Shown here: piece by piece, positions 403 through 21,969 of the stretch
Layout: each line of letters opens with the position of its first letter
How positions within the stretch are numbered: the first letter of the stretch is position 1
NCBI GenBank assembly: GCA_035578045.1
Contig: DATJWP010000188.1
Location: forward strand, 404-64,403
DNA: 64,000 bases
Reading direction: 5' to 3'
Origin: Polyangia bacterium
GTDB taxonomy: Bacteria > Myxococcota_A > Polyangia > Fen-1088
Notes under the pieces: model-generated
Told to the model about the DNA's origin: nothing
Databases searched by the model: none
The model's input: only the letters and a program-made list of their open reading frames with translations
Translations under genes and position numbers: made by a program

Positions 403-475
403 GCGGGATTAACTCAGTTGGTAGAGTGTCAGCTTCCCAAGCTGAATGTCGCCGGTTCGAGCCCGGTATCCCGCT
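403..475 (+). tRNA. tRNA-Gly (anticodon CCC)
   Basis: The cloverleaf folds by hand: acceptor GCGGGAT/ATCCCGC, D-stem ACTC/GAGT, anticodon stem TCAGC/GCTGA with loop TTCCCAA, T-stem GCCGG/CCGGT, T-loop TTCGAGC, discriminator T. CCA is not encoded. Confidence 0.9.
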
Positions 476-564
476 CAAGGAAACGGAGATTCGCCTCCGG
501 GCCCCGAGCGTTTCACCCCGACGCCTCGGGTGATCGATCAGCCCGGACCGGCAGCGCGCGCCGT

Positions 565-617: not shown

Positions 618-881
618 GCCCATCGCGTGAGCCCGTAACCGCATCGGCATTTTGCGATTCGACGGCCGGCCACCCGACGGCTCCAGCCTGAACCCTAGGA
701 AGACCGGACGGGACCTTCACCCGCCGTTCTTTTCCACACTGTCAAAGGACTTATTACGTACGAGTTAAATCTCCGTCAACTACGCAGAGATCTTCTGTGG
801 GCCCCTTGACCACCCCCGGTGTCAGTGATTCATTTGCATCACCGTCGCCAGATCAGAACGAGAGGGAAGGGCGGGAGGCAG

Positions 882-2279
882 ATGCTCAAGCACTACAGGC
901 TAACGATCGCGGCAACCGACCGGGTGATGGACGTGGCCCTGGTGGCGGGAATCTGGCTGGCATCCTTCTGGCTGCGGTTTCACGTGCCCCTGGTGGCGGT
1001 GACCAAAGGTTTCCCGGCTTTTTCGACGTACGCCGCCCTGACCCCGCTGGTGATCGCCATCTGGGGCCTCGTCTTCCAGGCCCACGGCGTCTACGAACCC
1101 CGGCGGTTCCTGCGTGGAAAGTCGCAGTCGGCGATGCTTCTGAGGGCGCACGCCACGGCGCTGCTCTGCTTTATCGCGCTCACCTATATTTTCAGCGAGT
1201 ACAGATATTCGCGCGGCGTCCTCGTCTACTTCGCCCTGTTTGGCGGGGTGACCCTGGTGATCGCGCGGAAGCTTGTGCGCAACGTCTTCACCCTGCTTCG
1301 CCGGCGTTCCGGCCAGCGCGGGGTCCTCCTGGTCGGCGAAGGGCCGTCCGTGGAGCTGCTGATTCGCCGGATCGATCGCTGCCCCGAGCTCGGGATCAGC
1401 GTCGTCGGCGTCCTCGTCTCCGCCGATTCGTCCGCCGAGCAGATCGGCGACAGACCGGTTGTGGGACGGTACGACGAGGTCGTGTCCGCCATCGAGCGGA
1501 CCGGGGCCGACCAGGTTCTGGTGGCACTACCAAGACAGCAATGGAGTGAGCTGGAGGGCCTCCTGGCACAGATCAGCGAGGACACCGTTGACGTCCAGAT
1601 CATTCCGGATATCCACGAGTTTGTAACGATCGGCTGTCAGGTCGAGGACTTCGACGGCATGCCCGTGGTCCGTTTGAACCCTTCCCCTTTGATGGGCTGG
1701 AGCGCCTTCCTGAAGCGGACCACCGACGTCATGTTGTCCATGGTGGCGCTGATCTTCCTGGCGCCCGTCATGCTGGCGATCGCCGCGATCGTCAAGGCGA
1801 CGTCAAACGGCCCGATCATCTACGGGCAGGACCGGATGGGTCTGGATGGTCGAGTGTTCCGGATGTACAAGTTCCGCACCATGCGCCAGGACGCCGAAGC
1901 CAGCAGCGGACCGGTTTGGGCGCGACCTCGCGACGATCGCCGGACGCCGGTCGGCTCCTTCCTTCGTTCGACCAGCCTGGATGAGCTTCCGCAGTTCTGG
2001 AACGTCCTGACCGGCGACATGTCCCTGGTCGGTCCGCGACCCGAACGCCCCGTGTTCGTCCAGCAGTTCCGCCGCGACATCTCGCATTACATGCTGCGCC
2101 ACAAGGTCAAAGCGGGCATCACCGGCTGGGCCCAGGTCAGCGGCTGGCGGGGCAATACGTCGCTCGATGCCCGGATCCGTTGCGACCTCGATTACATTCG
2201 GGATTGGACGTTGTTTCTCGACCTCAAGATACTCGTGCTGACGGTCTGGAAAGGATTCGTCAACAAGAACGCTTACTGA
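882..2279 (+). CDS. Polyprenyl-phosphate hexose-1-phosphate transferase (WbaP/WcaJ/EpsZ-type priming bacterial sugar transferase)
   Basis: N-terminal TM helices, and a C-terminal bacterial sugar transferase motif block (RMYKFRTM, DELPQFWNVLTGDMSLVGPRPERP). I prefer ATG 882, which follows GGGAGG, over the GTG 819 of the track. Confidence 0.85.
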   Translation: MLKHYRLTIAATDRVMDVALVAGIWLASFWLRFHVPLVAVTKGFPAFSTYAALTPLVIAIWGLVFQAHGVYEPRRFLRGKSQSAMLLRAHATALLCFIALTYIFSEYRYSRGVLVYFALFGGVTLVIARKLVRNVFTLLRRRSGQRGVLLVGEGPSVELLIRRIDRCPELGISVVGVLVSADSSAEQIGDRPVVGRYDEVVSAIERTGADQVLVALPRQQWSELEGLLAQISEDTVDVQIIPDIHEFVTIGCQVEDFDGMPVVRLNPSPLMGWSAFLKRTTDVMLSMVALIFLAPVMLAIAAIVKATSNGPIIYGQDRMGLDGRVFRMYKFRTMRQDAEASSGPVWARPRDDRRTPVGSFLRSTSLDELPQFWNVLTGDMSLVGPRPERPVFVQQFRRDISHYMLRHKVKAGITGWAQVSGWRGNTSLDARIRCDLDYIRDWTLFLDLKILVLTVWKGFVNKNAY

Positions 2280-2286
2280 TTATCAG

Positions 2287-2309
2287 CCATTGAGTACGCT
2301 ATTCAATGG
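2287..2309. terminator. Hairpin between convergent genes (CCATTGA-9 nt loop-TCAATGG)
   Basis: Perfect 7-bp inverted repeat immediately after the stop at 2279. There is no clear U-tract, and it overlaps the 3' end of the minus-strand ORF. Confidence 0.25.
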
Positions 2310-2958
2310 TCGGAGGTAGCGTGGAGTCAGGGTCGTTTTGACGAGGGGTTTCCCGTTCGTCGACGTCTGTCCGCACTGGCCGCTTGTGATGTTGTGGAGC
2401 GGACAATTTTCGGGGTCCGACCTCAGTTCGAGATGCTGGACGTGGGGGGGTGGATGTCTGCTGTGACGGGTTTGGATATTCCGGTGCTTGCAACGCGGCG
2501 GCCGGCATCGATTTCTTCGGGAGAAGTGACGCGGCCGACGCCGGTGGCGCCCCCGCAGGCCCATGGATGAGCTTTCGCCGCATGCCTTCGTCATGCTCCG
2601 GGAGCACAAACCAGGTGGCGCCCACCGCGACGAGCGCGACCGCAACCGCGAGCATTCGCCACCCGAAGCGTTTGACGGGCGAAGGTTCGTCGAGGTCGCC
2701 GGGCCGAGGCTCTTGCTCGGCTGGCGACATATGGCGCAACGACTGCCCGATCTCGAAGCCGCCACCGGATCCTTGAACCTGTTCGCCCAGTCCGACCTCC
2801 ACGCTTTGATTGGCGGCGGCCGTCACAGGCGGAGTCAGGGCATCCTCGTCGAGTCCCTCCAGCGATGAAGCGAGTTTTCTGTCCTCCACGTTCTCCCTTG
2901 ACGCCGACTCGTCATCCTGGCTTTCGTCGCCGAAGCCGTGGAGAGGCCTGCCCTGCAC
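2299..2958 (-). CDS. Hypothetical single-pass membrane protein (acidic N-terminus, Pro-rich C-terminus)
   Basis: 219-aa ORF with one clear TM helix (WRMLAVAVALVAVGATWFVL). No recognisable family. Competing overlapping ORFs are shorter. Confidence 0.4.
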   Translation of the reverse strand: MQGRPLHGFGDESQDDESASRENVEDRKLASSLEGLDEDALTPPVTAAANQSVEVGLGEQVQGSGGGFEIGQSLRHMSPAEQEPRPGDLDEPSPVKRFGWRMLAVAVALVAVGATWFVLPEHDEGMRRKLIHGPAGAPPASAASLLPKKSMPAAALQAPEYPNPSQQTSTPPRPASRTEVGPRKLSAPQHHKRPVRTDVDERETPRQNDPDSTLPPTIE

Positions 2959-3045
2959 ATTCGGAAGTTACCACACTGAACGCCCCCCGTGTGGCTGCAT
3001 GCGCTGCGTCCGGAGCCAACCAACGGCGCTTCTCGAACTTGTCTG

Positions 3046-6000
3046 ATGGCAACGCCTTCCCTTTTTGTCTACGCTGATCCACCAATGGGTGAACAATCCC
3101 CGGTCCCCGATCGCGCGTCAACGAGCGATACGGGGGGTTATCCGTTGACTCCGATGCAAGCAGGCATGCTCTTTAGCTCGCTCGTTGCGCCTTCCGCTGG
3201 GTACGATATCGGTCAAGTTGATCTGACGCTTCGCGAACACCTGGACGCCGCCGCGCTGGCGCAGGCCTGGACGTCGGTGGCTCGGCGCCATTGGGCCCTG
3301 TCCTGCCGCGTCGTTTGGGACCGTTTCGACGAGCCGAGGCAGATTCCCGTCCCAGGTGTCTTCGTGCCCGTGGAGGTCATCGACTGCGACGGAGCCGGGC
3401 CCACGGCTATCGAGCAGCAGATCGCGCTCTTCTGCCAGCAGGATCGTTTGCGGGGATTCGATCTTGCCAAGGCTCCGCTGATGCGGGTGACCCTGTTCCA
3501 GGCGGCCGGAGCGCCAACCCGCTTCATCTGCACCTTCCACTACATCCTGATGGACGGCCAGAGCCTGCCTATGGTCCTCACGGAGGTGTTTGCGGTATAC
3601 GATCGTATCCGGCAGGGGGCAACGCCTTCTGGCGCGCCGCCAGCCGGATCGTTTGGGGAGTACGTGCAGTCGCTCGCGCGGCGCGACCGCTCCGCGGGTC
3701 ACGCTCACTTTCGTAAGCTCCTCGAGGGACGAGCGGTTCCGACGAGGCTGGCATTTGCGGAGCTGCCCGATCCGGTCACGGCCGGAGGGGCGCACGCCGT
3801 CATCACGCGTACAACGACCGAGGCGCAGTCCGATGCGATCCGGGCGCTGGCGCGGAGGACTGCGACCAGTGTCGCAGCCGTGGCCCATGCCGCGTGGGCT
3901 CTGGCTCTGTCGCGCTACGCGACCGAGACCGACGTTCTATTCGGAACGGCGTTCTCCGATCGATCCTCGGCGCTGGACGGCGGGGCAGCCTCGATGGTTG
4001 GCCTCATGATCAACGTGCTGCCGATTCGAGCGCACTGCGACGATGAGAGGACCGTGGCCCAGCTTCTATCGGAGCTGGAAGGGCAGCTCGCTTCTCTGCG
4101 CGTTCACGGCCATACGCCCCTCCGGGAGATCGGCGGTCACAACGCCGGGGTTGTGGGTCGCTACTCGCTCGAGACGCTACTGATCGTCGAGCCGGAAGAC
4201 CTTGGCTCCGCCCTCGAACGGATGGGAGGCGAGGCCTGGCGGCATCGCGCGTGCCGGCTATACGAGCAACCGATCGTACCGCTGGCCGTCAAGGTAGCCG
4301 CCGGAACACGGATTAGCGTCCAGGTCCTGTTGGACCTACGCCACTATCGCCAGACCGCGGTCGAACGGCTCGTGACGTCATTCATGCTTGCGTTGGACGA
4401 GCTAGCACGGGATGAAACCCGCGCCCTGGGAGCGGTTTCGGTGATCCCGCCGGGAGACCTGGAAACGACCCGCCGTGTCTGGAATGCGACAAACAGACGA
4501 TTCTCCGATCAACTCCTCGTCCACCAGCTGTTCGAGGCGCAGGTCGGGTCCCGTGGCCAAGCGGTGGCCGTTGAACACGAAGGAGACGCTCTCTCGTATG
4601 AACAGCTGGAGGAGCGTGCGAACCGGGTGGCCCACGCCCTGATTGCCCGCGGGGTGGGTCCCGGCGCTTACGTCGGCATCTGCCTCAGTCGGCGCCCCAG
4701 CTTGGTCGCGGCCATCCTGGGCGTGCTGAAGTCGGGCGCCGCCTACGTGCCACTCGATTCTCAATATCCCCCGGCCCGCCTCGCCGCCATGACCGAAAGC
4801 GTGCACGCCACCCTCCTCGTGACCGAGCAAAGACACGCCCACCTGTTTCCGGAGCTCCCGCAGCTCCTTTTGGATGATGACGACTCCGCCCTCCTGAAGT
4901 TCGCCGAGACCCGACCCGCGATCGAGACGACGCCCTCCGAAGTCTGTTGCGTGTTCTTCACATCTGGCAGCACAGGCACGCCGAACGGCGTGATGGTTTC
5001 GCACCGCGCGATGGTCAACACACTGGAGTGGGTGACCCGTGAGTTCTCCGTCAGGCCCGGCGATCGGCTGCTCTTCGTGACGTCTCCCTGCTTCGACCTC
5101 TCCGTCTACGACATTCTCGGCACCCTCGGTGCAGGTGGCACGGTCGTGATCGCAAACGAGGATCTCCTCCGCAGCCCTTCCGCCCTGGCGAACGCCGTCA
5201 CCGGGCGAGCAATTACGATCTGGAATTCGGCTCCCGCCGCCCTGAACCGCATCCTGCCATTTTTGGCCCCCTTGGCCGCGCCCACGCTTCGTTTGGTGCT
5301 GTCGAGCGGCGATCGGATGCCGACCACCTTGCCGGGCGCGATCCGGGCCCTGTTTCCGGCGGCCGAGATCGTGAATCTTGGTGGCGCCACCGAAGCCGCC
5401 ATCTGGTCGAACTGGTTCCGGGTGAGGGACGTCGATCTCGGCTCTCCCCGAATCCCGTACGGCTGGCCGATCCAGAACTGTCGCTACTACATTCTGGACA
5501 GGGCACTCCGTTCCGTCCCGGTCGGGGTCACCGGAGACCTCTACATCGCCGGGGTCTGCCTGGCCGAGGGGTACCTCAACAATCCCGAGCTCACGGATCG
5601 GCGTTTTCTAATCGACCCTGCGGAGCCCCACGACCGGCTCTACAGAACGGGCGACGTCGCTCGCTACCTAGAGGATGGAACGCTCGATCTGATCGGCCGC
5701 GAGGACCAGCAGATCAAGATCCGAGGGTTCCGCGTGGAGATCGGCGAGGTCGAAGCGGCCTTGGCAGGGATGCCGGGGATCACGCACGCGATCTGCGTCC
5801 CATACCAAGATTCACTGGGTGACCGGTTCCTGGTGGCGTACGTCGTGCCCGCCAATCCGGCCACCGTGAACGCGCAATCCATCAAGGAGTTTCTCGCCCG
5901 GCACCTTCCCGACTTTATGATCCCCGCGCAGATCGTTTTCCTGAAGGAACTTCCCCTCTCGTCGAACGGCAAGCTCGACAGGGCGGCCTTGCGGCGGGAC

Positions 6001-7095
6001 CTGAACCGCGACACGGACACGTTCGTCGCGCCTCGCACGGAACAGGAACGTCGGGTAGCGAACATCTGGGAGCGCCTGCTCGATTTTCGTCCGATCGGCG
6101 TCAACGACGATTTCTTCGAGCGCGGAGGCCACTCGCTCCTCGCTGTCGCCTTCGTCGCGGCGGCCCAAGCCGAGCTGAACCTGGCCATTCCCCTCGAAAG
6201 GCTGATGGAGCGCCCAACGATCGCCTCGCTATTGCGGCAACCCAGCCGTTCGGACAGAGCCGCCGACTCCAAGCGATTTCTGCTCTTCAACATGCACGGA
6301 CACCGGCCCCCGCTGGTCCTGCTCCCGGAGCTTCGCGGCCGAATTTACGTTTACCGCGATCTGCCGAAGTCCTTCGGGACGGAACAGCCGGTCTTACTGG
6401 GCCAACCCGTCGGCGGCGAACCCGAAGATTCGGACATCGAACCGACGATCGAACGGATCGCGGAGATCTACGCCGCCGAGCTGAACCGACTCGTGCCAGA
6501 GGGCCCGATCATCGTGGGCGGGTTCAGCTTCGGCACCACAGTGGCACTCGAGCTGGTGCACCGATTGCGCCAGGCCGGCCGACGGGTGCCGCTGCTCGTG
6601 AGCCTCGACGGACTGGCGCCGGGCTACCCGGCGGCTCTGCCGCTGCCGGCTCGTCTGCTCGCGCACCTGAAGTACGCGGTCGGCGCTCCTGCAGCCACAC
6701 GCCCCCTGTACATCGCCGACCGCTTGGCATCGGCACGAAAGATCCTGTATCGCGCACTGGGTCACGAACACTTGCTGTTTCCGGAGAACCTGTCGGCCCC
6801 GCCAGAAACAATCAAACGGCACATGCGGATCTATCGGCTCAACATGCGGGCGATCAGTTGCTATCGCCCGGCCTTCAAAGAGCCCGGCCCGTTCCTGCTG
6901 CTCCGAGCGGAACGGCCCGAACGCTGGGTCGGAATCGAATCCGAGGAGCCAGACCACGGCTGGCGGCAGTTCGTCACGGGCGCGATAACGATCGAGACGT
7001 TACCCGGCGAGCACCTTACAATCATGCGCCCCAGCAATCATCGTTTGGTTGCCGAGAAGATATCATCCGGAATTGACAGATTGGCCAAATTTTAA
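3046..7095 (+). CDS. Single-module nonribosomal peptide synthetase, C-A-T-TE
   Basis: C domain: YPLTPMQAGMLF, and FHYILMDGQS at 3538-3558. A domain: FFTSGSTGTPNGV, FDLSVYD, NLGGATEAAIWS, YRTGDVARY, IKIRGFRVEIGEVE, SSNGKLDR. PCP: FFERGGHSLLAV, Ser codon 6133-6135. TE: GGFSFG (Ser codon 6526-6528), LVSLDG, PGEHLTI. The start is uncertain (GTG 2989, ATG 3046 or ATG 3085). Confidence 0.9.
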   Translation: MATPSLFVYADPPMGEQSPVPDRASTSDTGGYPLTPMQAGMLFSSLVAPSAGYDIGQVDLTLREHLDAAALAQAWTSVARRHWALSCRVVWDRFDEPRQIPVPGVFVPVEVIDCDGAGPTAIEQQIALFCQQDRLRGFDLAKAPLMRVTLFQAAGAPTRFICTFHYILMDGQSLPMVLTEVFAVYDRIRQGATPSGAPPAGSFGEYVQSLARRDRSAGHAHFRKLLEGRAVPTRLAFAELPDPVTAGGAHAVITRTTTEAQSDAIRALARRTATSVAAVAHAAWALALSRYATETDVLFGTAFSDRSSALDGGAASMVGLMINVLPIRAHCDDERTVAQLLSELEGQLASLRVHGHTPLREIGGHNAGVVGRYSLETLLIVEPEDLGSALERMGGEAWRHRACRLYEQPIVPLAVKVAAGTRISVQVLLDLRHYRQTAVERLVTSFMLALDELARDETRALGAVSVIPPGDLETTRRVWNATNRRFSDQLLVHQLFEAQVGSRGQAVAVEHEGDALSYEQLEERANRVAHALIARGVGPGAYVGICLSRRPSLVAAILGVLKSGAAYVPLDSQYPPARLAAMTESVHATLLVTEQRHAHLFPELPQLLLDDDDSALLKFAETRPAIETTPSEVCCVFFTSGSTGTPNGVMVSHRAMVNTLEWVTREFSVRPGDRLLFVTSPCFDLSVYDILGTLGAGGTVVIANEDLLRSPSALANAVTGRAITIWNSAPAALNRILPFLAPLAAPTLRLVLSSGDRMPTTLPGAIRALFPAAEIVNLGGATEAAIWSNWFRVRDVDLGSPRIPYGWPIQNCRYYILDRALRSVPVGVTGDLYIAGVCLAEGYLNNPELTDRRFLIDPAEPHDRLYRTGDVARYLEDGTLDLIGREDQQIKIRGFRVEIGEVEAALAGMPGITHAICVPYQDSLGDRFLVAYVVPANPATVNAQSIKEFLARHLPDFMIPAQIVFLKELPLSSNGKLDRAALRRDLNRDTDTFVAPRTEQERRVANIWERLLDFRPIGVNDDFFERGGHSLLAVAFVAAAQAELNLAIPLERLMERPTIASLLRQPSRSDRAADSKRFLLFNMHGHRPPLVLLPELRGRIYVYRDLPKSFGTEQPVLLGQPVGGEPEDSDIEPTIERIAEIYAAELNRLVPEGPIIVGGFSFGTTVALELVHRLRQAGRRVPLLVSLDGLAPGYPAALPLPARLLAHLKYAVGAPAATRPLYIADRLASARKILYRALGHEHLLFPENLSAPPETIKRHMRIYRLNMRAISCYRPAFKEPGPFLLLRAERPERWVGIESEEPDHGWRQFVTGAITIETLPGEHLTIMRPSNHRLVAEKISSGIDRLAKF

Positions 7096-7163
7096 GTCCG
7101 CCTCCGGAGGTTTACTTATCGCCTTGACACCTACACGGACGCACGACAGGATGTCTCTGTTGA

Positions 7164-8192
<1,029 letters not shown>

Positions 8193-8195: not shown

Positions 8196-9206
8196 ATGGC
8201 GGACAAGAAGGCCCTGATCACCGGGATCACTGGCCAGGACGGCTCGTACCTGGCAGAGCTGCTCCTTGGCAAAGGCTACGAGGTGAGCGGTATCGTGCGG
8301 CGCTCGAGCTCGTTCAACACGGAACGCCTGCAATCCCACTATCAGGATCCGCACGCGTCGAGCTACCGGCTGCGCCTCATTTACGGCGACCTCGACGACG
8401 GCGCGGCAATAGCGCGGACGATCCGCGACGTAGCGCCGGACGAGATCTACAACCTGGGCGCGCAGAGCCATGTCCGCGTCAGCTTCGACGTGCCAGAGTA
8501 TACAGTCGCCAGCGTGGCGATGGGAACGCTGCGGCTGCTCGAGGCCATTCGAGACACCGGAAAGAGCGTTCGCTTCTATCAGGCATCTTCCAGCGAAATG
8601 TTCGGATCGGCGTCTCCGCCGCAGAGCGAGACGACGCCTTTCCAGCCCCAGAGTCCCTACGCCTGCGCCAAGGTCTTTGCTCACCAGCTTTGTCAGAACT
8701 ATCGGGCCGCCTATGGCCTGTTCATCTCGTGCGGAATTCTCTTCAACCATGAATCTCCGCGGCGCGGGATTCCGTTCGTCACCCGCAAGGTCACCCGGGC
8801 CGCCGCTCGGATCAAGCACGGCCTCGATCGCAAGCTGTACCTGGGCAACCTGGACGCTCGCCGCGACTGGGGCTTTGCCGGAGACTACGTCGATGCGATG
8901 TGGCGGATGCTGCAGGCCGATCGGCCTGACGACTTCGTGATCGCCACCGGCGAGTCACACAGCGTGCGAGAGCTGCTCGACGCGGCCTTCGAAGCCTTGG
9001 GCCTCGACTGGCGCGAATACGTGGAGCTCGATCCGCGCTACCTGAGGCCGACCGAGGTCGATCACCTGGAAGGAGACGCCACCAAGGCGCGGCGGGTGCT
9101 CGGATGGGAGCCACGAGTGCGTTTCAGGGATTTGATCCGGATGATGGTTCAGGCCGACGAGGAGGACATCCGTCTTTCGCTGGCCGGGCGCGCCCCACCC
9201 GCGTAA
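8196..9206 (+). CDS. gmd: GDP-mannose 4,6-dehydratase
   Basis: [56 protein letters not shown]: the classic Gmd motif set. Confidence 0.9.
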
Positions 9207-9218: not shown

Positions 9219-10388
9219 ATGCAACGCCACAGCATCTTTCTCCAGCAACCGATTCTGCCGCCTTATCGGTTGTCGTTCGTCAAACAGCTGGCGAAGTCAC
9301 CTCTTCTGTCGACGACGGTGGCCTACGGACAGGAGCACCCGCGGTCCGCCTTGCGCAGCATCCTAAACCCAGACGGCGTGTCGGTCCGCACTTTGAGGAA
9401 TGTCTTCGTCGCGTCCGATCGGCTGATGACCGCCCAGATGGGCGCGGTGACCGCCTTCGACATCTCGCACTTCGACACCCTGATCTGCACGTTCGATCCA
9501 CGGATCGTCACCAACACACTGCTGGTGCTCAAGGCCAAGCGGCACCACGTGCCGGTCATCCTCTGGGGACACGGCATACGCCCGCGCGGTCGGTTCAAGC
9601 ACCTCTACAAGCGAGCCGCCGAGATCGCCGAGGCAGTGATCCTCTACTCGGCGAAGGGCAAACGCGAGCTGCAGGACCTGGGTGTTCCTGAAGGCAAAAT
9701 GTTCGTCGCCTGGAACTCGATCGATACGCACGTCATCGCGGGCGTGCGTGACGGTAAGCCGCTTCGCGAGCGCGACGGCATCATCTACGTGGGGCGTCTG
9801 GTTCGCGACAAGAAGATCCTGCTACTGATCAAAGGCTTCGCGCGGGCGCGTGGCTCCCTCCCGGCGGCGGCACATCTCTACATCGTCGGGTCCGGACCGA
9901 TGCGTGTGCCTGCCGAGAAGCTGGCCCGCGATCTGGGTATAGCGGCACACGTCACCTTTGCCGGCGAGACCTATCGCGAGGAAGAGGTGGCCAGCTGGAT
10001 GAATCGCTCATGGATCTCGGTCTCGCCCGGGTACATCGGGCTCAGCGTGATCCATGCCTTCGCATACGGCCTCCCGATGATCGCCGGCGATCGCGAACCA
10101 CACAGCCCCGAGGTCGAGGCCTTGCTACCCGGCAAGAATGGCGAGTTCTTTACGGCTGATGACCCGGAAGCGCTGGCCCGTTCGCTGGTATCCATTCACG
10201 CCGATCCTGCACGCTTGACCGCGATGGGTCAGGCGGCGCTCGTCACCAGCGATTTTTTCAGCGTTCGATCGATGGTCGCCGCGTTCGAGCGAGCCGTGGC
10301 TTTCGCCCATGGAGAGGGACCGCCCGATCTGGGCACCTACGGGCTCGACATCGGGCATGGCGCTCTCCACGGGGCCGCGCTGCCGTGA
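9219..10388 (+). CDS. Glycosyltransferase, GT4-like (GT-B fold)
   Basis: C-terminal half shows the GT4 pattern (FAGE...SWISVSPGYIGLSVIHAFAYGLPMIA, E-x7-E-like region). Sits in the co-oriented EPS block. Confidence 0.7.
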   Translation: MQRHSIFLQQPILPPYRLSFVKQLAKSPLLSTTVAYGQEHPRSALRSILNPDGVSVRTLRNVFVASDRLMTAQMGAVTAFDISHFDTLICTFDPRIVTNTLLVLKAKRHHVPVILWGHGIRPRGRFKHLYKRAAEIAEAVILYSAKGKRELQDLGVPEGKMFVAWNSIDTHVIAGVRDGKPLRERDGIIYVGRLVRDKKILLLIKGFARARGSLPAAAHLYIVGSGPMRVPAEKLARDLGIAAHVTFAGETYREEEVASWMNRSWISVSPGYIGLSVIHAFAYGLPMIAGDREPHSPEVEALLPGKNGEFFTADDPEALARSLVSIHADPARLTAMGQAALVTSDFFSVRSMVAAFERAVAFAHGEGPPDLGTYGLDIGHGALHGAALP

Positions 10389-11473
10389 GCGGAGAGCCGC
10401 TCCTGTGCTTGATCGGCACGTTTCCGCCGCCCGTTCACGGGCAGGCGGCCGTGAACGAGGCCGTCCGCAAGCGGGTGGCCGAGGCCGGTTCCCCACACGT
10501 GGTGATCAATCTGGCCGGCGCCTCGCTGGAGCGAGGGTGGCGAACGCGACTCAAACGCATCGGAGCGTTCGGGTCGGGATTGGCATCCTTGCTGAAGCTA
10601 GCGCTGGAGCGGCGGCGGCTCACCATCTACATGAGCGTCTCGGGCGGGTGGGGACAACTATACGAGGCCTGCTTTGCGTCGGTCGGCCGGGCGGTGGACG
10701 CGAGGATGTTCTTGCACCACCACAGCTTTGCGTATCTGGACGAGCGCCGGACGCTGACGGCGCTGCTGGCGTGGATAGCGGGGCCGGAGGCCACCCACGT
10801 GGTCCTTTGCGAGCGGATGGCGCGCCTCCTGCGGGAGCGCTATACGCCGGTGCGGCAGGTCATGGAGATCTCGAACGCTGGCCTGGTGGATCCACCCTCA
10901 GGTGAAGCGACGCCGCGCCCGGCTCTGAAGACGCTCGCCTTTCTCAGCAACGTCTCGCGAGAGAAGGGTGTGCTGCGCTTCCTCGACGTGATCGAGGCCT
11001 TGCGGCGAGAGAGACTGGGCCTTCGCGCCCGGATTGCGGGCCCTTTCCAGGACGCGGAGATCGAAAGCACCGTTCGCCAGCGCCTGGCGCGCCTCGGCGA
11101 TGGCGTGGAATACCTGGGCGCGCGCTACGGCGAAGAGAAGCGGCGCTTCTTCCTCGAAGCGGACGCGCTCCTTTATCCGTCCGACTACGTAAACGAAGCC
11201 GAGCCGCTCGTGATCTGGGAGGCCGTATCTCAAGGACTCCCGGTGGTCGCCTGGGGCCGCGGATGCATCGGTCAGATGCTGTCGGACGGCGCAGGGGCCG
11301 CCGTCCCTGTCGCCGAGGACTTTCTCCCCGACGCCGTGGGCCGCGTCAAGGAGTGGATCTCGCGGCCCGACCTGTTCACCGAGGCGTCGCGGCGAGCGGC
11401 GGAGTCGTTCGCCCACCGGCGCCGGGCCGCCGAAGCCGGCGCCGCAACCCTCATCCGGCTGTTGACATCATGA
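10385..11473 (+). CDS. Glycosyltransferase, GT4-like
   Basis: GTGA start/stop overlap with the upstream GT. C-terminal region has a GT-B type E-x7-E stretch (YPSDYVNEAEPLVIWEAVSQGLPVVA). Confidence 0.65.
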   Translation: MSGEPLLCLIGTFPPPVHGQAAVNEAVRKRVAEAGSPHVVINLAGASLERGWRTRLKRIGAFGSGLASLLKLALERRRLTIYMSVSGGWGQLYEACFASVGRAVDARMFLHHHSFAYLDERRTLTALLAWIAGPEATHVVLCERMARLLRERYTPVRQVMEISNAGLVDPPSGEATPRPALKTLAFLSNVSREKGVLRFLDVIEALRRERLGLRARIAGPFQDAEIESTVRQRLARLGDGVEYLGARYGEEKRRFFLEADALLYPSDYVNEAEPLVIWEAVSQGLPVVAWGRGCIGQMLSDGAGAAVPVAEDFLPDAVGRVKEWISRPDLFTEASRRAAESFAHRRRAAEAGAATLIRLLTS

Positions 11474-12426
11474 CGTTCGAGAGATCACCGGGGTGCGTCC
11501 TGTGCGGGGCACATGTGCAGGAGTCGTTGGACCGCGTCTTCGATGCCCGCTTCGGCGTCCCAGGTTTCTGGACAATCGGCATCTGCTCCGCATGCGGGCT
11601 TGAGCAGACGTTTCCGCTTCTCGACCTCTCCGCGCTCCGGGCCCTGTACGAGGCGCACTACAACTTTGGTGGCGAGAAAGACACGCTGTACGATCGCCTG
11701 CGCGAGCGTTTCCTGGGCTCGGCCGCCTACGCGATGTGGCTGCGTCTTGACGGAGACGTTTCGTTTCACGGCCGCCGAGGCCAGGGGCGACTTCTGGACG
11801 TTGGGTGCAACGAGGGCCGGAGTCTGCTTCGATATCGGGCCGGTGGATTCACCGCAGAAGGGGTGGAGATCAACGCGATGGCGGCGGCTCGTGCCCGGGC
11901 AGCCGGGTTCCGCGTGCACGAAGGCACCATCGAGGACTTTCGCCCCACTCAGCTCTACGATGTGGTGGTTCTGTCGAACGTGCTCGAACACGCGCTGGAT
12001 CCGCGGGACATGCTCCGCCGGGTACGAAGCGTCTTGGCGCCCGGGGGGCAGCTGTGGGTGAGCCTTCCGAACGGGCGTAGCTGGCTGCGTGCCCTCTTCG
12101 GGCGGGCTTGGATCAACTGGCACGTGCCCTTTCATATCGTTCATTTCTCGGAAGCGACCCTAGGCAAGTTACTTCGCGAAGAAGGCTTCGCGGTAGAGTC
12201 GACGAATTGCACAACGCCGGCTGTCTGGGTCTGCCAATCACTCCTGGCCGCCGTTTTTGGCCGGCCGAGCCGCCCCACATTGGCTTTGCGAAACCCGGCG
12301 CTGGTCGGGGGGGTGATGGCGGCCATTCGGGGGCTGTTCTTTCCGGTCTTGTGGGCCGGCGACGTCACCGGCCGAGGAGACTGCCTGGTGGTCACCGCGC
12401 GAAAGGACGCCCGATCGGCGGTGTAG
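11470..12426 (+). CDS. Class I SAM-dependent methyltransferase with N-terminal CxxC...CxxC zinc-ribbon
   Basis: ATGA overlap with the upstream GT. CVLCGAHV...CSACG, SAM motif I LLDVGCNEGRSL, and VVVLSNVLEH. The track ORF start at 11263 is an upstream extension overlapping the GT. Confidence 0.75.
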   Translation: MTFERSPGCVLCGAHVQESLDRVFDARFGVPGFWTIGICSACGLEQTFPLLDLSALRALYEAHYNFGGEKDTLYDRLRERFLGSAAYAMWLRLDGDVSFHGRRGQGRLLDVGCNEGRSLLRYRAGGFTAEGVEINAMAAARARAAGFRVHEGTIEDFRPTQLYDVVVLSNVLEHALDPRDMLRRVRSVLAPGGQLWVSLPNGRSWLRALFGRAWINWHVPFHIVHFSEATLGKLLREEGFAVESTNCTTPAVWVCQSLLAAVFGRPSRPTLALRNPALVGGVMAAIRGLFFPVLWAGDVTGRGDCLVVTARKDARSAV

Positions 12427-12523: not shown

Positions 12524-13759
12524 ATGGCCGTTCGTCGGATCTTGATTGTGGCAGTCAACTACTGGCCGGAGCCAACCGGAACAGCTCCTTATACGACCGG
12601 CCTGGCCGAACACCTGGTGACGCGGGACTGGGAGGTCAAGGTCGTCACAACGATGCCCTATTACCCGACCTCGAGTGTTTTCGCCGAGTATCGGTCGGCC
12701 GCCTGGCGGAAGGAGCTTGTGAATGGGGTGCGGATCCTGCGCGGGCGACCGTATGTGCTGAACCGACAGACCGCGTTTGCACGAGCTTTGCTCGAAGCAT
12801 CCTTTCTGCTGAGCTCAGGCCCACTCATCGCCGGGGCCGCGCCGGACCTGGTGCTGGGCATCAGTCCAGGCATCAGTAGTGCTTTGCTCGCTCTGGCTGC
12901 CGCGCGCATCTACCGTGTGCCGCTAGCGCTGTGGATCCAGGATCTCCTGGGAGCCGGCGCCATACAGAGCGGGGTGCCGGGGGGCCAAACGATCGGGTCC
13001 GCAGCGACCCTCGTCGAAGGATGGATAGCTCGACAAGCCGATCGAATCGCCATCATCTCTCAGTCATTCCGTCCGTATCTGGCTGCGGCCGGTGTCTCGG
13101 CTGACAGAATCAGCCGAATCCGGAACTGGACCCACATCGGGCGCGCGACGAGGTCACGCGAAGCCGTTCGTGCCGACTTCGGCCTCGGCAGCTCCGACTG
13201 GATCTGCCTTCATGCGGGAAACATGGGCTACAAGCAGGGCCTCGAGAACATCGTGGATTGTGCCCGACTCGCCCAGTCGGTAGCGCCCGACCTCACCTTC
13301 GTCCTTTTGGGCGACGGCAACCAGCGGGCGATGCTGGAAGAACGAGGACGACATCTACCCAATTTGCGGTTCTTGCCGACCCAGAGCAATGAGCAGTTCG
13401 CCAATGCACTCGCAATGGCCGACGTTCTGCTGGTAAACCAGCGCGCGTCTGTCACGTCGATGTCTCTCCCGAGCAAGCTCACTTCTTACCTCGCGGCAGA
13501 TCGGCCCATCGTGGCCGCAGTGTCTTCCGGTGAGGTGGCGAGCCTCCTGACAGAGGTCGGCGCCGGGGCTGTCGTACCACCGGAATCGCCCGCCGCGCTA
13601 TTGGAACAACTCGTGTCACTCCGCCGCCAGCCCACCTTGGCGGCGGAAATGGCCGCTCGCGGGGCGGAATACGCCCGGACTGTCCTCTCCCCCGGCCAAA
13701 CTCTGACGGCACTCGAGCGGTTCGTCGGCGGACAGGACGATAGGGGTTCGCCGGTGTGA
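12524..13759 (+). CDS. Glycosyltransferase, WcaI-like (GT4)
   Basis: N-terminus ILIVAVNYWPEPTGTAPYTTGLAEHL is typical of WcaI-type GTs. Has a C-terminal GT-B region. Confidence 0.7.
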   Translation: MAVRRILIVAVNYWPEPTGTAPYTTGLAEHLVTRDWEVKVVTTMPYYPTSSVFAEYRSAAWRKELVNGVRILRGRPYVLNRQTAFARALLEASFLLSSGPLIAGAAPDLVLGISPGISSALLALAAARIYRVPLALWIQDLLGAGAIQSGVPGGQTIGSAATLVEGWIARQADRIAIISQSFRPYLAAAGVSADRISRIRNWTHIGRATRSREAVRADFGLGSSDWICLHAGNMGYKQGLENIVDCARLAQSVAPDLTFVLLGDGNQRAMLEERGRHLPNLRFLPTQSNEQFANALAMADVLLVNQRASVTSMSLPSKLTSYLAADRPIVAAVSSGEVASLLTEVGAGAVVPPESPAALLEQLVSLRRQPTLAAEMAARGAEYARTVLSPGQTLTALERFVGGQDDRGSPV

Positions 13760-13762: not shown

Positions 13763-14725
13763 ATGAGGTACAAAGATGCGCTCCGGAAATGCCTGGGAGA
13801 CCTGTACCCGGCAGCTGTTCGGCTTCGCCATTCGCCTTTCGCGCGAACCCTGAAGGCGCTGACCGGCGTTCCTTTGTATTTCGTCCGACAGCGACAAAAT
13901 CCGAGACGCCTACACGCTGACGTCGACGGCATTCGCGGAATGGGCGCTCTGATCGCCCGAGCTATTCTGTTGTTCCGCCACGCTGAACGGTTTGGCCTTG
14001 AAGCATCGATAATATCCACGAATCCTCTCTACGGGGAGGTGCCCGGCGAGGACTGGCTCGATTCGTACTTCTTCACTCCCGGACATACGACCCAAGGGTT
14101 TCCGCTCCGAGGCGTGTCGCTGGATGCCGCGATGAGGTTCGTTGTCCACCCCCACCTGAACCTCACGGACGCCGCCAGACTCTTTCACCTCCACTTCAGG
14201 CCGCGGCCCGTGATTTCGGTACCCTTGCAAGAAGTGCTCTCCAAGACGGCCGGTGGTCTATTTGACCTGTCAATTCACTATCGGGGCACGGACAAGGTCA
14301 TCGAGAGCGGAACCGTTGGGTTCGAGTCCATGGTTCAGCGGATCGACGCAGTCATGGCGCTTTCCAGGTCGCCTCGAACGGTCTTTCTCGCCACTGACGA
14401 CCCTCAGTTCGAACAGACCATCCGAACACGCTACCCTCGGTGCGAGTTCGCCAGCTTCAAGCTCGGCTCCGTTCCCGAGGGCAAACCTCGACATTTTTCT
14501 AGCATGTCGCCCCGAGCTAAAGCCATCGAGGCGATCGTCAACATCTTCCTGATAGCCTCGGCAAAGATGTGCATCCGAACCAGTTCATACCTCTCCGCCG
14601 TGAGCCGAATTGCCAATCCCACGCTGCGGACCTTCACCGTCAACCGCACGCTCGCGGGATCACGGCTGTTCCCCGAAATGGAGCTCCTGGCCGCGGAGGA
14701 ATCCCTCCAATTTGCTCCCGGCTGA
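13763..14725 (+). CDS. Hypothetical protein; candidate fucosyltransferase (HxRxxD motif)
   Basis: SIHYRGTDK resembles motif I (H-x-R-x-x-D) shared by GT11/GT23/NodZ-type fucosyltransferases. It is co-oriented with gmd and fcl. No other family signal was recognised. Confidence 0.4.
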   Translation: MRYKDALRKCLGDLYPAAVRLRHSPFARTLKALTGVPLYFVRQRQNPRRLHADVDGIRGMGALIARAILLFRHAERFGLEASIISTNPLYGEVPGEDWLDSYFFTPGHTTQGFPLRGVSLDAAMRFVVHPHLNLTDAARLFHLHFRPRPVISVPLQEVLSKTAGGLFDLSIHYRGTDKVIESGTVGFESMVQRIDAVMALSRSPRTVFLATDDPQFEQTIRTRYPRCEFASFKLGSVPEGKPRHFSSMSPRAKAIEAIVNIFLIASAKMCIRTSSYLSAVSRIANPTLRTFTVNRTLAGSRLFPEMELLAAEESLQFAPG

Positions 14726-14731: not shown

Positions 14732-15691
14732 TCACTCGCCCGGACGACCGCCCGGGTTGCGAGCGGACATCAGTCGGCTCGACCCGAGCAGCGTGGCGAG
14801 CTTCTTCCTGACCGCCTGAGCGTAGTACCTATACGAGTGAGCGACGTTCGGCAAATGCGACAACAGTGAAAGCCATCGATAGTCGCCCTCCCGGCTCAAG
14901 TCAAACAATCCGAACTGACTGATGACGAAAGGGCTCTGGTCGCCGGGGAGCCTTACCGGCGAGCGAGAGAATCGCCTCTTCTGGAGGTGGATGTAGACGT
15001 ACTCCCGCTGTAACCCATCCCCGGCATCACAAAAAAGCCGGCCATCCCTCCATACGAACAATTGACCCCACCTGTTTGGATGTCGGGTAATGTACAGAAA
15101 GGGTGACCGCGGCGAAATATCCGCAATCATCTCCGCCCTGCAAACGGAGAGATTGTTCTCTCGAAAGATCACGTCGATCCCGTTAGTCTCGTCGAAGGCG
15201 ACTGAATCGTCAGTGGAGAACGCCGCGCGGTAATCTCGCACCCCGCCTGGCAATTCATACGCTGCATTAACGACCGGGTCATTCTTGTAGAGAGTAAAGT
15301 GACCGCGTCTGAATATCTTGACGTACTTCGTGGAGCGCGCCACATCCAACACAGGCGTCAAGTCACCAAAGACCATGTCGAAATCGCAGTGCCCCCACCA
15401 GTCGCAGCCTTTGAGCTCCGGTGCAAAGATCTTTCCAAACGCAGGACGAAAATCGCAGAGCTTGTAGGGGGACCTGAGAGCGATAGGAAAGTTGAAATTG
15501 CTTTGGAAGCGCGCTGCGAGCTCTTTGAATGTCGTGGTCACAAACTGAACGTTGGCTGGCATGCCCTGAGGCGGGGTGAAATCCCCGAAGAACAGAAACT
15601 CCACGCGGCTGTTCTTGGCACAAGAGGCCAGGAAATTGACGAAGTAAGGGGGCATCCGGCCAAAATAGGCATTTATTACGATGACCCTCAT
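14732..15691 (-). CDS. DUF6625-like protein of capsule/EPS loci (putative glycosyltransferase)
   Basis: The N-terminus (VIVINAYFGRMPPYFVNFLASCAKNSRVEFLFF...PYKLCDFRPAFG...WWGHCDFDMVFGDL) matches, from memory, a family common in polysaccharide loci. This is the lowest-GC gene in the window. Confidence 0.5.
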   Translation of the reverse strand: MRVIVINAYFGRMPPYFVNFLASCAKNSRVEFLFFGDFTPPQGMPANVQFVTTTFKELAARFQSNFNFPIALRSPYKLCDFRPAFGKIFAPELKGCDWWGHCDFDMVFGDLTPVLDVARSTKYVKIFRRGHFTLYKNDPVVNAAYELPGGVRDYRAAFSTDDSVAFDETNGIDVIFRENNLSVCRAEMIADISPRSPFLYITRHPNRWGQLFVWRDGRLFCDAGDGLQREYVYIHLQKRRFSRSPVRLPGDQSPFVISQFGLFDLSREGDYRWLSLLSHLPNVAHSYRYYAQAVRKKLATLLGSSRLMSARNPGGRPGE

Positions 15692-21638: not shown

Positions 21639-21969
21639 CGAGGTGCGTAAAGTTTGCGTCAAGACTACGTTTCCCACAACGTCACACGCCTCATCACGTG
21701 TAGGGTAAGCTAGCAGGTTTTCTTTTGTGGAACAACGCTTCGGTTTCGCGATCGAAGCCCGCCGCGAATTGGTCTGCTCCCAGCCATTGGGACCGCCGAC
21801 GTTCGCGACCTTCGAGCTCGGCCCCGGGTCCGGCGTTGCCGAGTTGCCATAACCACGAAGGCCGAACGATCGGGTTAACTGTGGATGAACCTCGCGAGGA
21901 AAATCAGCAGCTTGTGTTTCAGCGCTCCCGACCGACGCCGTCCCGGTGGTCGTCCACCTCGCTTCGGCG

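What the first reader, a model, noticed from the sequence alone, without database searches (positions are those of the whole stretch)
3046..7095. Complete single-module NRPS (C-A-T-TE) embedded in a Wzx/Wzy fucose-type EPS locus: candidate carrier-dependent aminoacylation of a polysaccharide
A complete single-module NRPS sits between the priming phosphoglycosyltransferase (882-2279) and the fcl-gmd-GT-GT-MT-GT block. It faces the wzx-wza-wzc-wzy block on the other strand. NRPS modules are not normal components of Wzx/Wzy loci. The window contains no second module, PKS, MbtH or tailoring gene. A module that loads one residue and has its own TE fits transfer of one aminoacyl group onto a non-peptide acceptor. 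Precedents for carrier-protein-dependent aminoacylation of glycoconjugates are DltABCD (D-Ala on teichoic acid) and Vibrio AlmEFG (Gly on lipid A). My hypothesis is that the EPS repeat unit, or a lipid-linked intermediate, is decorated with cysteine or a related residue. The alternative is an unrelated small-metabolite gene that landed in the island.
Basis: partly seen in the sequence, partly recalled or inferred. Interest (0 to 1): 0.8.

Follow-up and report, generated by a model that had tools for sequence, protein, structure and literature searches.

The report
Cysteine-loading NRPS inside a polysaccharide operon
A complete one-module peptide synthetase predicted to load cysteine is a conserved part of an exopolysaccharide gene cluster in several uncultured soil bacteria, so it may attach an amino acid to the sugar polymer, but this chemistry is unproven.

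Summary
Window 3046-7095 (+) encodes a complete C-A-T-TE synthetase. It lies between a WcaJ-type priming phosphoglycosyltransferase and an fcl-gmd-GT-GT-MT-WcaI-like block, and converges on wzx-wza-wzc-wzy. The 64 kb window holds no other NRPS, PKS, MbtH or PPTase gene. The A-domain code is DLYNLSLIWK, which is listed among cysteine codes.

- The NRPS keeps its place next to the same GT in three further metagenomic lineages (77, 57 and 48% identity; host GC 58-73%), despite other rearrangements.
- In a fifth lineage it is flanked by a GT2 and a membrane AT3 acyltransferase.
- Its TE domain belongs to a clade (bootstrap 100) that also holds free-standing TE and T-TE proteins encoded in PGT/GT loci.
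- The nearest other relatives (39-48%) are orphan genes in unrelated contexts, and their TE falls outside that clade.
- In this genome alone the catalytic second His of the C domain is Tyr (CAC to TAC).

My best reading, at about 0.4, is that the module loads Cys and its TE passes a cysteinyl or N-acyl-cysteinyl group to a glycan-pathway acceptor. The main rival is a free N-acyl-cysteine-type metabolite made alongside the EPS. The acceptor, the linkage and the role of the C domain are all inferred.

The parts
403..476 (+). tRNA-Gly(CCC), just upstream of the low-GC island
   Evidence: Rfam and ARAGORN. The island at 819-23310 has GC 0.62 against 0.70 for the rest of the window, and GC3 0.66-0.83 against 0.85-0.98. 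No att-like repeat was found.
819..2279 (+). Priming phosphoglycosyltransferase, WcaJ type (Und-P glucose-1-P transferase)
   Evidence: Pfam Bac_transf plus CoA_binding_3. TIGR03023 scores 478.5 bits against a cut-off of 410.75. It is 75% identical to the PGT directly upstream of the NRPS in L005.
2280..3045 (.). About 770 nt gap between the PGT and the NRPS, holding an antisense ORF (2299-2958, 219 aa, one TM-like segment) that matches no family
   Evidence: A gap of similar size is present in the P0002 contig but absent in L005, where the PGT stop overlaps the called NRPS start.
3046..7095 (+). Single-module NRPS, C-A-T-TE
   Evidence: Pfam, motifs, 100% identical to P0001 from a Polyangia MAG.
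3136..4428 (+). Condensation domain, most like DCL-type C domains
   Evidence: PDB phmmer gives McyB C1 6e-55, PvdL 1.6e-42, SrfA-C 5e-39 and TycB1 1.5e-33, against 1e-7 to 1e-11 for TycC6, CDA C1, LgrA and EntF. The subtype labels of those reference domains come from my own knowledge.
3541..3543 (+). TAC (Tyr185) in place of the catalytic second His of HHxxxDG
   Evidence: The window reads CAC-TAC where L005 and L165 read CAC-CAC. All nine compared relatives keep HH.
4531..5973 (+). Adenylation domain with code DLYNLSLIWK (Cys)
   Evidence: The core motifs YRTGD, GRxDxQxKxRG and NGKLDR are intact.
6052..6237 (+). Thiolation (carrier) domain, GGHS Ser1049
6310..7065 (+). Thioesterase domain, Ser1180/Asp1207/His1342, with a long helical lid
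   Evidence: Pfam; invariant triad in alignment A2; AF2 model with pLDDT 85.6. The best PDB relatives are the AB3403 TE, the FAS TE, NocB and the Pks13 TE. It falls in a clade with glycan-locus TE proteins.
7212..8192 (+). fcl-like GDP-4-keto-6-deoxymannose epimerase/reductase
   Evidence: Pfam Epimerase/GDP_Man_Dehyd. NF047922 scores 283.9 bits, below its cut-off of 500. It is 73% identical to the gene after the NRPS in L165.
8196..9206 (+). GDP-mannose 4,6-dehydratase (gmd)
   Evidence: Pfam 8.9e-135; 86% identical to the L165 gene.
9219..10388 (+). GT1/GT4 glycosyltransferase ('GT389'), the gene that stays with the NRPS in every EPS-type relative
   Evidence: Orthologues are 88% (P0122, the P0002 contig), 69% (L005) and 64% (L165) identical.
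10385..11473 (+). Second GT1-family glycosyltransferase
   Evidence: A 362-aa GT follows GT389 in the P0002 contig as well.
11263..12426 (+). SAM-dependent methyltransferase; its true start probably lies downstream of the overlap
12524..13759 (+). WcaI-family glycosyltransferase
   Evidence: NF007640 scores 278.8 bits against a cut-off of 276.
13763..14725 (+). 320-aa protein of unknown family, with a weak FUT8-like hit only
14732..15691 (-). DUF6625 protein
15727..16632 (-). 301-aa protein with an N-terminal hydrophobic segment and no family
16637..17974 (-). Wzy-type polymerase (Wzy_C, 10 TM-like segments)
17993..20455 (-). Wzc-like co-polymerase / tyrosine-kinase-type protein (GNVR, AAA_31)
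   Evidence: 47% identical to the L165 gene.
20490..22127 (-). Wza-type outer-membrane export protein (Poly_export, SLBB)
21970..23310 (-). Wzx-like flippase (weak MatE hit, 8 TM-like segments)
   Evidence: 49% identical to the L165 gene.

Best explanation
The gene encodes a cysteine-activating single-module NRPS that is a stable working part of a WcaJ-initiated, 6-deoxyhexose-containing Wzx/Wzy polysaccharide operon. Proposed mechanism: the A domain adenylates L-Cys and loads it on the phosphopantetheine arm of Ser1049. In relatives with an intact HHxxxDG motif the N-terminal DCL-like C domain may first N-acylate it, but in this genome the catalytic His is Tyr, so that step is probably weak or absent. 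The TE takes the cysteinyl or acyl-cysteinyl group on Ser1180 and passes it to a nucleophile of the glycan pathway instead of water. The most likely acceptor is a hydroxyl of the undecaprenyl-diphosphate-linked repeat unit on the cytoplasmic face, before Wzx flips it. Shown here: the domain set, intact A/T/TE catalytic residues, the Cys code, conserved placement in the operon, and a TE clade that tracks glycan loci. Inferred: the acceptor, the linkage, the timing, and what the C domain does.
For: Domain architecture and motifs are. The code DLYNLSLIWK equals a listed Cys signature. Synteny holds in several lineages. The P0002 contig has PGT, a small ORF, NRPS, GT389 and GT362, with Wza further on. 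L005 has PGT (75%), NRPS (57%) and GT389 (69%), with an overlapping stop/start at the first junction and a 4-nt gap at the second. L165 (GC 0.58) has Wzc, a Wzy-like gene, a 348-aa ORF, NRPS (48%), fcl (73%), gmd (86%), GT389 (64%) and Wzx (49%). L086 and L085 are two strains 86% identical in nucleotides that together give GT2-NRPS-AT3 acyltransferase. These NRPSs group together at 48-77% identity, against 39-48% to the orphan group. T and TE identity fall away most sharply between the two groups: TE is 53-84% within the EPS group and 32-38% to orphans, while A stays at 52-56%. In the TE neighbour-joining tree, the EPS NRPSs, L085, P0156 and the free-standing P0153 (T-TE, between a hexapeptide acyltransferase and GTs) and P0154 (TE overlapping a PGT, with GTs nearby) form a clade with 100% bootstrap that excludes the orphan TEs. 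There is precedent for a TE that offloads onto a sugar: the Pks13 TE releases its product onto trehalose (PMC9210659). Pks13 is also the only NCBIfam model that the isolated TE region of this family matches, though weakly. The second His of the C domain is replaced in the window protein and in several family members (HD, HP, HR), which fits a module that does not always need condensation.
Against: No experiment or chemistry links the enzyme to a glycan. The four EPS-type loci are homologous, so they show retention of one arrangement, not independent recruitment. Contexts are known for only about a dozen family members, and P0002, P0153 and P0154 come from a single metagenome. Orphan relatives with the same architecture sit in unrelated neighbourhoods, so the module type can release a product unaided. 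The closest solved TEs (AB3403, FAS) include hydrolytic enzymes, and Foldseek does not separate transferase from hydrolase. The island encodes no amino-sugar pathway and no DltB-, AlmG- or AT3-type membrane transferase. More distant GT389 homologues sit in EPS loci with no visible NRPS. The His-to-Tyr change could instead mean the gene is starting to decay.
Confidence: 0.4

Rival explanations
1. The NRPS makes a free or membrane-bound small molecule, most simply a long-chain N-acyl-cysteine or another Cys-derived lipoamino acid. The C domain would take an acyl-CoA or acyl-ACP donor and the TE would hydrolyse the product. The gene would sit in the EPS operon only because the product is made together with the matrix, for example as a surfactant, signal or metal/redox ligand.
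For: Orphan relatives with the same architecture stand alone in unrelated contexts, so they must form a product from primary-metabolism donors. Most family members keep HHxxxDG. The best solved TE relatives are the AB3403 TE and the long-chain fatty-acid synthase TE. There is a documented precedent for lipoamino-acid genes lying next to EPS genes: N-acyl amino acid synthase genes are often adjacent to the EPS-associated PEP-CTERM/exosortase system (PMC7293339, citing Craig et al. 2011).
Against: In this genome the catalytic His needed for N-acylation is Tyr. The C domain resembles DCL-type elongation domains, not the CDA starter C domain. Free-standing TE and T-TE proteins of the same TE clade occur in PGT/GT loci with no A or C domain, where no amino-acid product can be made. 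The operon position between the PGT and GT389 has been kept through rearrangements. No exosortase or PEP-CTERM gene was seen in the window.
Confidence: 0.3
2. The protein is the termination module of a split pathway. Its C domain would receive a donor from a separate adenylating enzyme and carrier protein, or from another NRPS, encoded elsewhere in the genome, as with EntF, AB3403, SrfA-C and ObiF1. Its location in the island would then say nothing about its function.
For: [quoted passage not shown] The C domain is of the DCL-like elongation type. The MAG contig is 101 kb and only 64 kb of it was visible.
Against: No partner is present in the 64-kb window or in any of the roughly 15-27 kb relatives' contigs. 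The catalytic His is lost here. Conserved operon embedding with glycan genes would be unexpected for a mere hitch-hiker.
Confidence: 0.12
3. In this genome the gene is an inactive or decaying remnant, or the His-to-Tyr change is an assembly error and tells us nothing.
For: The change is a single C-to-T transition in the catalytic codon and is unique to this MAG. The NRPS diverges faster than its neighbours: 48-57% identity against 64-86% for the PGT, gmd, fcl and GT389.
Against: The 1,368-codon ORF is uninterrupted and all A, T and TE catalytic motifs are intact. Its GC3 matches the neighbouring island genes. Several other family members also lack the second His, which points to tolerance and not decay.
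Confidence: 0.08

Closest known systems
AB3403 (ABBFA_003403) of Acinetobacter baumannii, a free-standing C-A-T-TE termination module (PDB 4ZXH/4ZXI)
   Same: It has the same four-domain single-module architecture and a similar length (1320 aa). Its TE is the closest solved relative by sequence profile (9.8e-24) and by fold (Foldseek 3e-16, 26% identity). Its pathway product is also undefined (PMC10510592).
   Different: The AB3403 structure has glycine bound in the A domain, and the module receives its donor from a separate A enzyme and carrier protein in its own operon. Its C domain is not among the hits to this C domain. It is not in a Wzx/Wzy locus.
DltABCD (D-alanylation of teichoic acids) and Vibrio AlmEFG (glycine on lipid A)
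   Same: The logic is the same: one amino acid is adenylated, carried as a thioester on a phosphopantetheinyl carrier, and transferred to a glycoconjugate without being built into a peptide. The A domain scores 273 and 264 bits on the two DltA models, both below their cut-offs, as generic ANL similarity.
   Different: In those systems A and T are separate small proteins, and the transfer needs dedicated membrane transferases (DltB/DltD, AlmG; from my own knowledge). Here A and T are fused with a C and a TE domain, and the island has no membrane transferase. Only the L085 relative has an adjacent AT3 membrane acyltransferase.
Pks13 thioesterase domain (mycolic acid condensase)
   Same: It is a type I TE that releases its carrier-bound acyl product onto a sugar (trehalose) and not onto water (PMC9210659). 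Pks13 is the only NCBIfam model matched by the isolated TE region here and by P0154 and P0156, and it is among the fold hits.
   Different: The similarity is weak (24-31 bits, about 20% identity). Pks13 handles very long acyl chains within a PKS, not an aminoacyl group in an NRPS.
N-acyl amino acid synthases linked to PEP-CTERM/exosortase EPS loci
   Same: They are amino-acid-derived small-molecule genes that recur next to exopolysaccharide assembly genes, with an unexplained functional link (PMC7293339).
   Different: Those enzymes are small N-acyl amino acid synthases and not NRPSs. I saw no exosortase or PEP-CTERM genes in the window.
Colanic-acid-type Wzx/Wzy loci (WcaJ, WcaI, Gmd, Fcl, Wza, Wzc, Wzx, Wzy)
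   Same: The PGT passes the WcaJ cut-off and one GT passes the WcaI-family cut-off. gmd, an fcl-like gene, Wza, Wzc-like, Wzy and Wzx-like genes are all present.
   Different: To my knowledge colanic-acid loci carry no NRPS. This locus has no hexapeptide acetyltransferase, and it has extra unknown genes (DUF6625 and the 320-aa and 301-aa ORFs).

Membership tests
NRPS termination module (C-A-T-TE) | Condensation domain with the catalytic HHxxxDG motif | tested here: not met
   The domain is present (Pfam 4.9e-48) but the motif reads HYILMDG. The second His is Tyr (TAC at 3541-3543), while relatives read HH.
NRPS termination module (C-A-T-TE) | Adenylation domain with core motifs and a readable specificity code | tested here: met
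   AMP-binding 3.3e-78 plus AMP-binding_C. TIGR01733 scores 413.6 bits against a cut-off of 317.4. The code is DLYNLSLIWK.
NRPS termination module (C-A-T-TE) | Carrier domain with the phosphopantetheinylation Ser | tested here: met
   PP-binding 3.5e-12; GGHSLL with Ser1049. The PPTase is not in the window.
NRPS termination module (C-A-T-TE) | C-terminal type I thioesterase with a Ser-Asp-His triad | tested here: met
   Thioesterase 5.8e-19. GFSFG, SLDG and GEH are invariant in A2. The fold model has pLDDT 85.6 and matches TE structures.
NRPS termination module (C-A-T-TE) | An upstream donor (carrier protein or module) encoded with it | tested here: not met
   There is none in the 64-kb window or in the relatives' contigs. 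The rest of the genome was not visible.
Dlt/Alm-type carrier-dependent aminoacylation of glycoconjugates | A dedicated A enzyme and carrier that load one amino acid | tested here: met
   A and T are present, but fused into one protein together with C and TE.
Dlt/Alm-type carrier-dependent aminoacylation of glycoconjugates | A dedicated membrane transferase (DltB MBOAT/DltD, or AlmG) | tested here: not met
   The island has no MBOAT, AT3 or LpxL-like gene. The related L085 has an Acyl_transf_3 gene 34 nt downstream.
Dlt/Alm-type carrier-dependent aminoacylation of glycoconjugates | A demonstrated aminoacylated glycoconjugate product | not testable with these tools
   This needs EPS chemistry on an expressed locus.
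Wzx/Wzy-dependent polysaccharide locus | Priming PGT, flippase, polymerase and Wza/Wzc export pair | tested here: met
   The WcaJ equivalog is passed. Wzy_C and Poly_export pass their Pfam cut-offs. GNVR, AAA_31 (Wzc-like) and MatE (Wzx-like) are just below theirs, but the proteins are 47-49% identical to the L165 Wzc and Wzx and have the expected TM patterns.
Wzx/Wzy-dependent polysaccharide locus | GDP-fucose supply (Gmd plus Fcl) | tested here: inconclusive
   gmd is clear (8.9e-135). The fcl-like protein scores 283.9 on NF047922, below the cut-off of 500, so a different GDP-6-deoxyhexose is possible.
EPS-linked N-acyl amino acid synthase systems | NAS-family synthase next to exosortase/PEP-CTERM genes | tested here: not met
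   The enzyme here is an NRPS. I saw no exosortase or PEP-CTERM gene among the ORFs scanned.
Sugar-offloading thioesterases (Pks13-TE type) | TE fold related to the Pks13 TE | tested here: inconclusive
   The matches are weak (30.6 bits on NF040607; Foldseek 1e-13, TMq 0.62) and no better than matches to hydrolytic or cyclising TEs.
Sugar-offloading thioesterases (Pks13-TE type) | Transfer to a sugar hydroxyl instead of water | not testable with these tools
   This needs an enzyme assay.

The most novel reading that the evidence does not exclude
A previously unrecognised way of decorating Wzx/Wzy polysaccharides. A cytoplasmic single-module NRPS loads cysteine, and a specialised thioesterase clade acts as the glycan acyl/aminoacyl transferase. 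That clade is found fused to C-A-T, as T-TE, or free-standing next to priming transferases. The result would be a thiol-bearing (cysteinylated) exopolysaccharide or lipid-linked intermediate.
Probability: 0.35. Interest if true: 0.85.

Novelty: new variant of a known kind. Interest (0 to 1): 0.62.

Why it matters
Amino-acid decorations of bacterial surface polysaccharides change charge, immune recognition, phage susceptibility and metal binding, yet the enzymes that add them are poorly known. If this reading is right, an NRPS module with a glycan-directed thioesterase would be a new enzymatic route, related in logic to Dlt and Alm but built differently. A cysteinylated EPS would carry free thiols, which matters for redox chemistry, metal binding and cross-linking in soil biofilms. 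The TE clade found here, including its free-standing forms beside priming transferases, gives a concrete search handle for such systems in genomes. If the rival is right, the locus adds an NRPS example to the unexplained link between lipoamino-acid synthesis and EPS assembly.

Tried and rejected
- Scans of genome contigs and metagenome contigs with the whole protein returned almost only generic NRPSs at 40% identity or less. Only L085 and L086 were family members.
- The first protein search was saturated by generic NRPS hits and missed the L165 orthologue. I found that one only by searching with the neighbouring GT.
- A tblastn of the TE against plasmids gave only generic NRPS TEs below 30% identity.
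- Rfam over the island found only the tRNA. The promoter/terminator scan of 2200-7300 was at or below chance. I found no att-like repeat of the tRNA 3' end.
- NCBIfam gave no equivalog for the NRPS.
- The AF2 and Foldseek analysis of the TE confirmed the fold but could not separate a transferase from a hydrolase.
- Literature searches for an NRPS in Wzx/Wzy or O-antigen loci found no direct precedent. The Lipocone paper was not relevant.
- An hmmsearch with the TE profile over all 170 fetched loci added no further EPS-type members.
- I considered a heterocyclisation (Cy) domain because the A domain is of the Cy-associated Cys type. I rejected this because the alignment to McyB and the PDB ranking show an ordinary C domain.
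- I considered thiazolidine formation between Cys and the Gmd keto-sugar product. It remains untested speculation, because two EPS-type relatives show no gmd/fcl on their short contigs (19 kb and 6 kb).

Full report
**What is in the sequence.**
The window comes from a high-GC Polyangia MAG. The protein is 100% identical to P0001, named 'MAG TPA: Polyangia bacterium', from a 101-kb contig. Residue numbers below count from 2989.

- Pfam finds Condensation (50-382), AMP-binding (515-863), AMP-binding_C (920-995), PP-binding (1022-1083) and Thioesterase (1108-1359), so this is a complete C-A-T-TE module.
- The carrier serine (Ser1049) and the TE residues Ser1180, Asp1207 and His1342 are in place.
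- The A-domain core motifs are intact. The ten specificity residues, read off the A4/A5/A10 anchors, are DLYNLSLIWK. A 2025 survey lists this signature among cysteine-activating domains (PMC12283262).
- By sequence the C domain is much closer to McyB C1, PvdL, SrfA-C and TycB1 (E 6e-55 to 1.5e-33) than to TycC6, the CDA starter C domain, LgrA or EntF (1e-7 to 1e-11). I know the first group as domains that take D-configured donors, so I call this domain DCL-like. That label is an inference.
The second histidine is tyrosine, through a single CAC-to-TAC change at 3541-3543. Every close relative reads HH.

**The surroundings.**
- The NRPS lies in a 22-kb island (819-23310) with GC 0.62 against 0.70 elsewhere, and GC3 0.66-0.83 against 0.85-0.98. 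The island begins just after a tRNA-Gly(CCC) gene.
- Upstream is a large phosphoglycosyltransferase that passes the WcaJ equivalog cut-off.
- Downstream are an fcl-like gene (below the Fcl cut-off), gmd, two GT1/GT4 genes, a methyltransferase, a GT that passes the WcaI-family cut-off, and an unknown 320-aa ORF.
- Converging on the minus strand are a Wzx-like flippase, Wza, a Wzc-like protein, Wzy, an unknown 301-aa ORF and a DUF6625 protein.
- Pfam scans of about 30 ORFs in the remaining 40 kb found signalling, efflux and housekeeping genes, but no other NRPS or PKS module, MbtH or PPTase.

**Relatives and their contexts.**
Full-length relatives fall into two groups (identity matrix).

Group 1 is 48-77% identical to the window protein, and every member lies in a polysaccharide locus:
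- The P0002 contig has PGT, a small ORF, the NRPS, GT389 (88%) and GT362, with Wza further on.
- L005 has PGT (75%), NRPS (57%) and GT389 (69%). The PGT stop overlaps the called NRPS start, and only 4 nt separate the NRPS from the GT.
- L165, from a 58%-GC organism, has Wzc (47%), a Wzy-like gene, a 348-aa ORF, NRPS (48%), fcl (73%), gmd (86%), GT389 (64%), Wzx (49%), a GT4 and a hexapeptide acyltransferase.

The NRPS-GT389 adjacency has therefore survived the gain or loss of fcl-gmd between the two genes and the reshuffling of the export genes.

L085 and L086 are two strains 86% identical in nucleotides. They carry a 43-45% relative flanked by a GT2 upstream and an Acyl_transf_3 membrane acyltransferase 34 nt downstream.

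Group 2 (P0004, P0005, P0006, and P0009, which lacks a TE) is 39-48% identical to group 1. Its members are lone genes among housekeeping, signalling or unknown genes, with no glycan genes nearby. Three of them have Asp in place of Asn at code position 278, giving DLYDLSLIWK. More distant GT389 homologues (42-46%) lie in EPS loci without a visible NRPS.

**The thioesterase is the part that tracks glycan loci.**
- Per-domain identities show that the A domain stays at 52-56% between the groups, while the TE drops from 53-84% within group 1 to 32-38% between groups.
- A profile of the group-1 TE found free-standing proteins at 42-46% identity. P0154 is a TE alone whose start overlaps the end of a PGT, with GTs beside it. 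P0153 is a T-TE didomain between a hexapeptide acyltransferase and two GTs. P0156 is a TE alone, about 2 kb from a cluster of FemAB-like, GT, PIG-L and nucleotidyltransferase genes.
- All of them keep the catalytic triad and several family-specific invariant motifs.
- In a neighbour-joining tree (277 columns, 50 bootstraps) the group-1 TEs, L085, P0156, P0153 and P0154 form a clade with 100% support. The orphan TEs fall outside it.
- An exhaustive search of 1.84 billion representatives found 466 proteins at E ≤ 1e-30. Many are 1280-1470-aa single modules with code DLYNLSLIWK or DLYD[LMF]SLIWK, and several have a substituted second His (HD, HP, HR).

So the window protein belongs to a sizeable, uncharacterised family of cysteine-type single modules, and a sub-clade of that family is tied to glycan genes.

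**Nearest characterised relatives.**
- The TE profile's best solved match is the TE of AB3403, a free-standing C-A-T-TE module of Acinetobacter baumannii with no defined product. The fatty-acid synthase TE, NocB and the Pks13 TE follow.
- An AlphaFold model (pLDDT 85.6) shows a canonical alpha/beta hydrolase with a long helical lid and gives the same ranking. This does not separate hydrolysis from transfer.
[quoted passage not shown] No such partner is encoded here.
- The Pks13 TE shows that a TE can release its product onto a sugar (PMC9210659).
- N-acyl amino acid synthase genes are known to lie next to EPS-associated exosortase genes (PMC7293339). This is a real precedent for the rival reading.

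**Interpretation.**
At about 0.4, the best-supported reading is that this module loads cysteine and its TE delivers a cysteinyl or N-acyl-cysteinyl group to an acceptor of the polysaccharide pathway. The acceptor is probably the lipid-linked repeat unit on the cytoplasmic side.
- For: retention in the operon across deep divergence and across very different host GC contents; tight gene spacing in L005; the TE clade shared with A-less and C-less proteins in PGT/GT loci; the AT3 neighbour in L085; and the apparent dispensability of the C-domain histidine.
- Against: there is no chemistry. The EPS-type loci are homologous and not independent. Contexts are known for only about a dozen members, three of them from one sample. 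Orphan relatives show the architecture can work alone. The island has no membrane transferase and no amino-sugar genes.

The main rival, at about 0.3, is a free N-acyl-cysteine-type metabolite made alongside the EPS. A split pathway with a partner encoded elsewhere (about 0.12) and a decaying gene (about 0.08) remain possible.

**Novelty and verdict.**
The NRPS itself is an ordinary kind of enzyme. What is unusual is its conserved place inside a Wzx/Wzy operon and the glycan-associated TE clade. My literature searches found no description of either. If the decoration model holds, it is a new variant of carrier-protein-dependent aminoacylation of glycoconjugates (the Dlt/Alm logic), built from different parts.

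Noticed in passing
window 403-476 and 819-23310: A tRNA-Gly(CCC) gene lies directly upstream of the whole EPS locus. The locus has much lower GC and GC3 than the rest of the window, which suggests a horizontally acquired island. L165, with 86% gmd identity, comes from a 58%-GC organism. I found no att-like repeat.
   Followed up: partly
window 3541-3543: The catalytic second His of the C-domain HHxxxDG motif is Tyr (CAC to TAC) in this MAG only. Several more distant family members also carry HD, HP or HR at this position.
   Followed up: yes
window 43642-46148: A stand-alone LPG_synthase_C protein (the MprF C-terminal aminoacyl-lipid synthase domain) overlaps a metallo-beta-lactamase-fold ORF. 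An OEP/AcrB efflux pair follows at 46176-52002.
   Followed up: no
window 2299-2958 (-): A 219-aa antisense ORF with one hydrophobic segment fills the ~770-nt gap between the PGT and the NRPS and matches no family. A comparable gap with a 71-aa ORF exists in the P0002 contig, but L005 has none.
   Followed up: partly
window 15727-16632 (-) and 13763-14725 (+): Two island ORFs match no Pfam or NCBIfam family. The 301-aa one has an N-terminal anchor and an ELDIDE stretch that resembles the GH16 ExDxxE motif. The 320-aa one has an HYRGTD stretch reminiscent of fucosyltransferase motif I, plus a weak FUT8 hit. Both motif readings are by eye.
   Followed up: no
L085 3767-4912 and L086 647-1585: In a 43-45% relative of the NRPS, seen in two strains 86% identical in nucleotides, the gene is followed by an Acyl_transf_3 (OafA/OpgC-type) membrane acyltransferase and preceded by a GT2. 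The layout recalls DltA/C plus DltB.
   Followed up: partly
P0004, P0005, P0006 and many representatives: A large set of single-module C-A-T-TE proteins carries Asp in place of Asn at code position 278 (DLYD[LMF]SLIWK). Their substrate might be a cationic Cys isostere such as 2,3-diaminopropionate, but that is pure speculation.
   Followed up: no
L004 3-680: The TE-less family member P0009 is preceded on its contig by a separate ORF fragment that matches the TE profile (141 bits). In that lineage the TE may be encoded as a separate gene.
   Followed up: no
window 36223-37449 (-) and 52090-53553 (-): An HGSNAT_cat/Acyl_transf_3-like membrane acyltransferase and an HTTM-domain protein lie outside the island, in host-composition DNA.
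   Followed up: no
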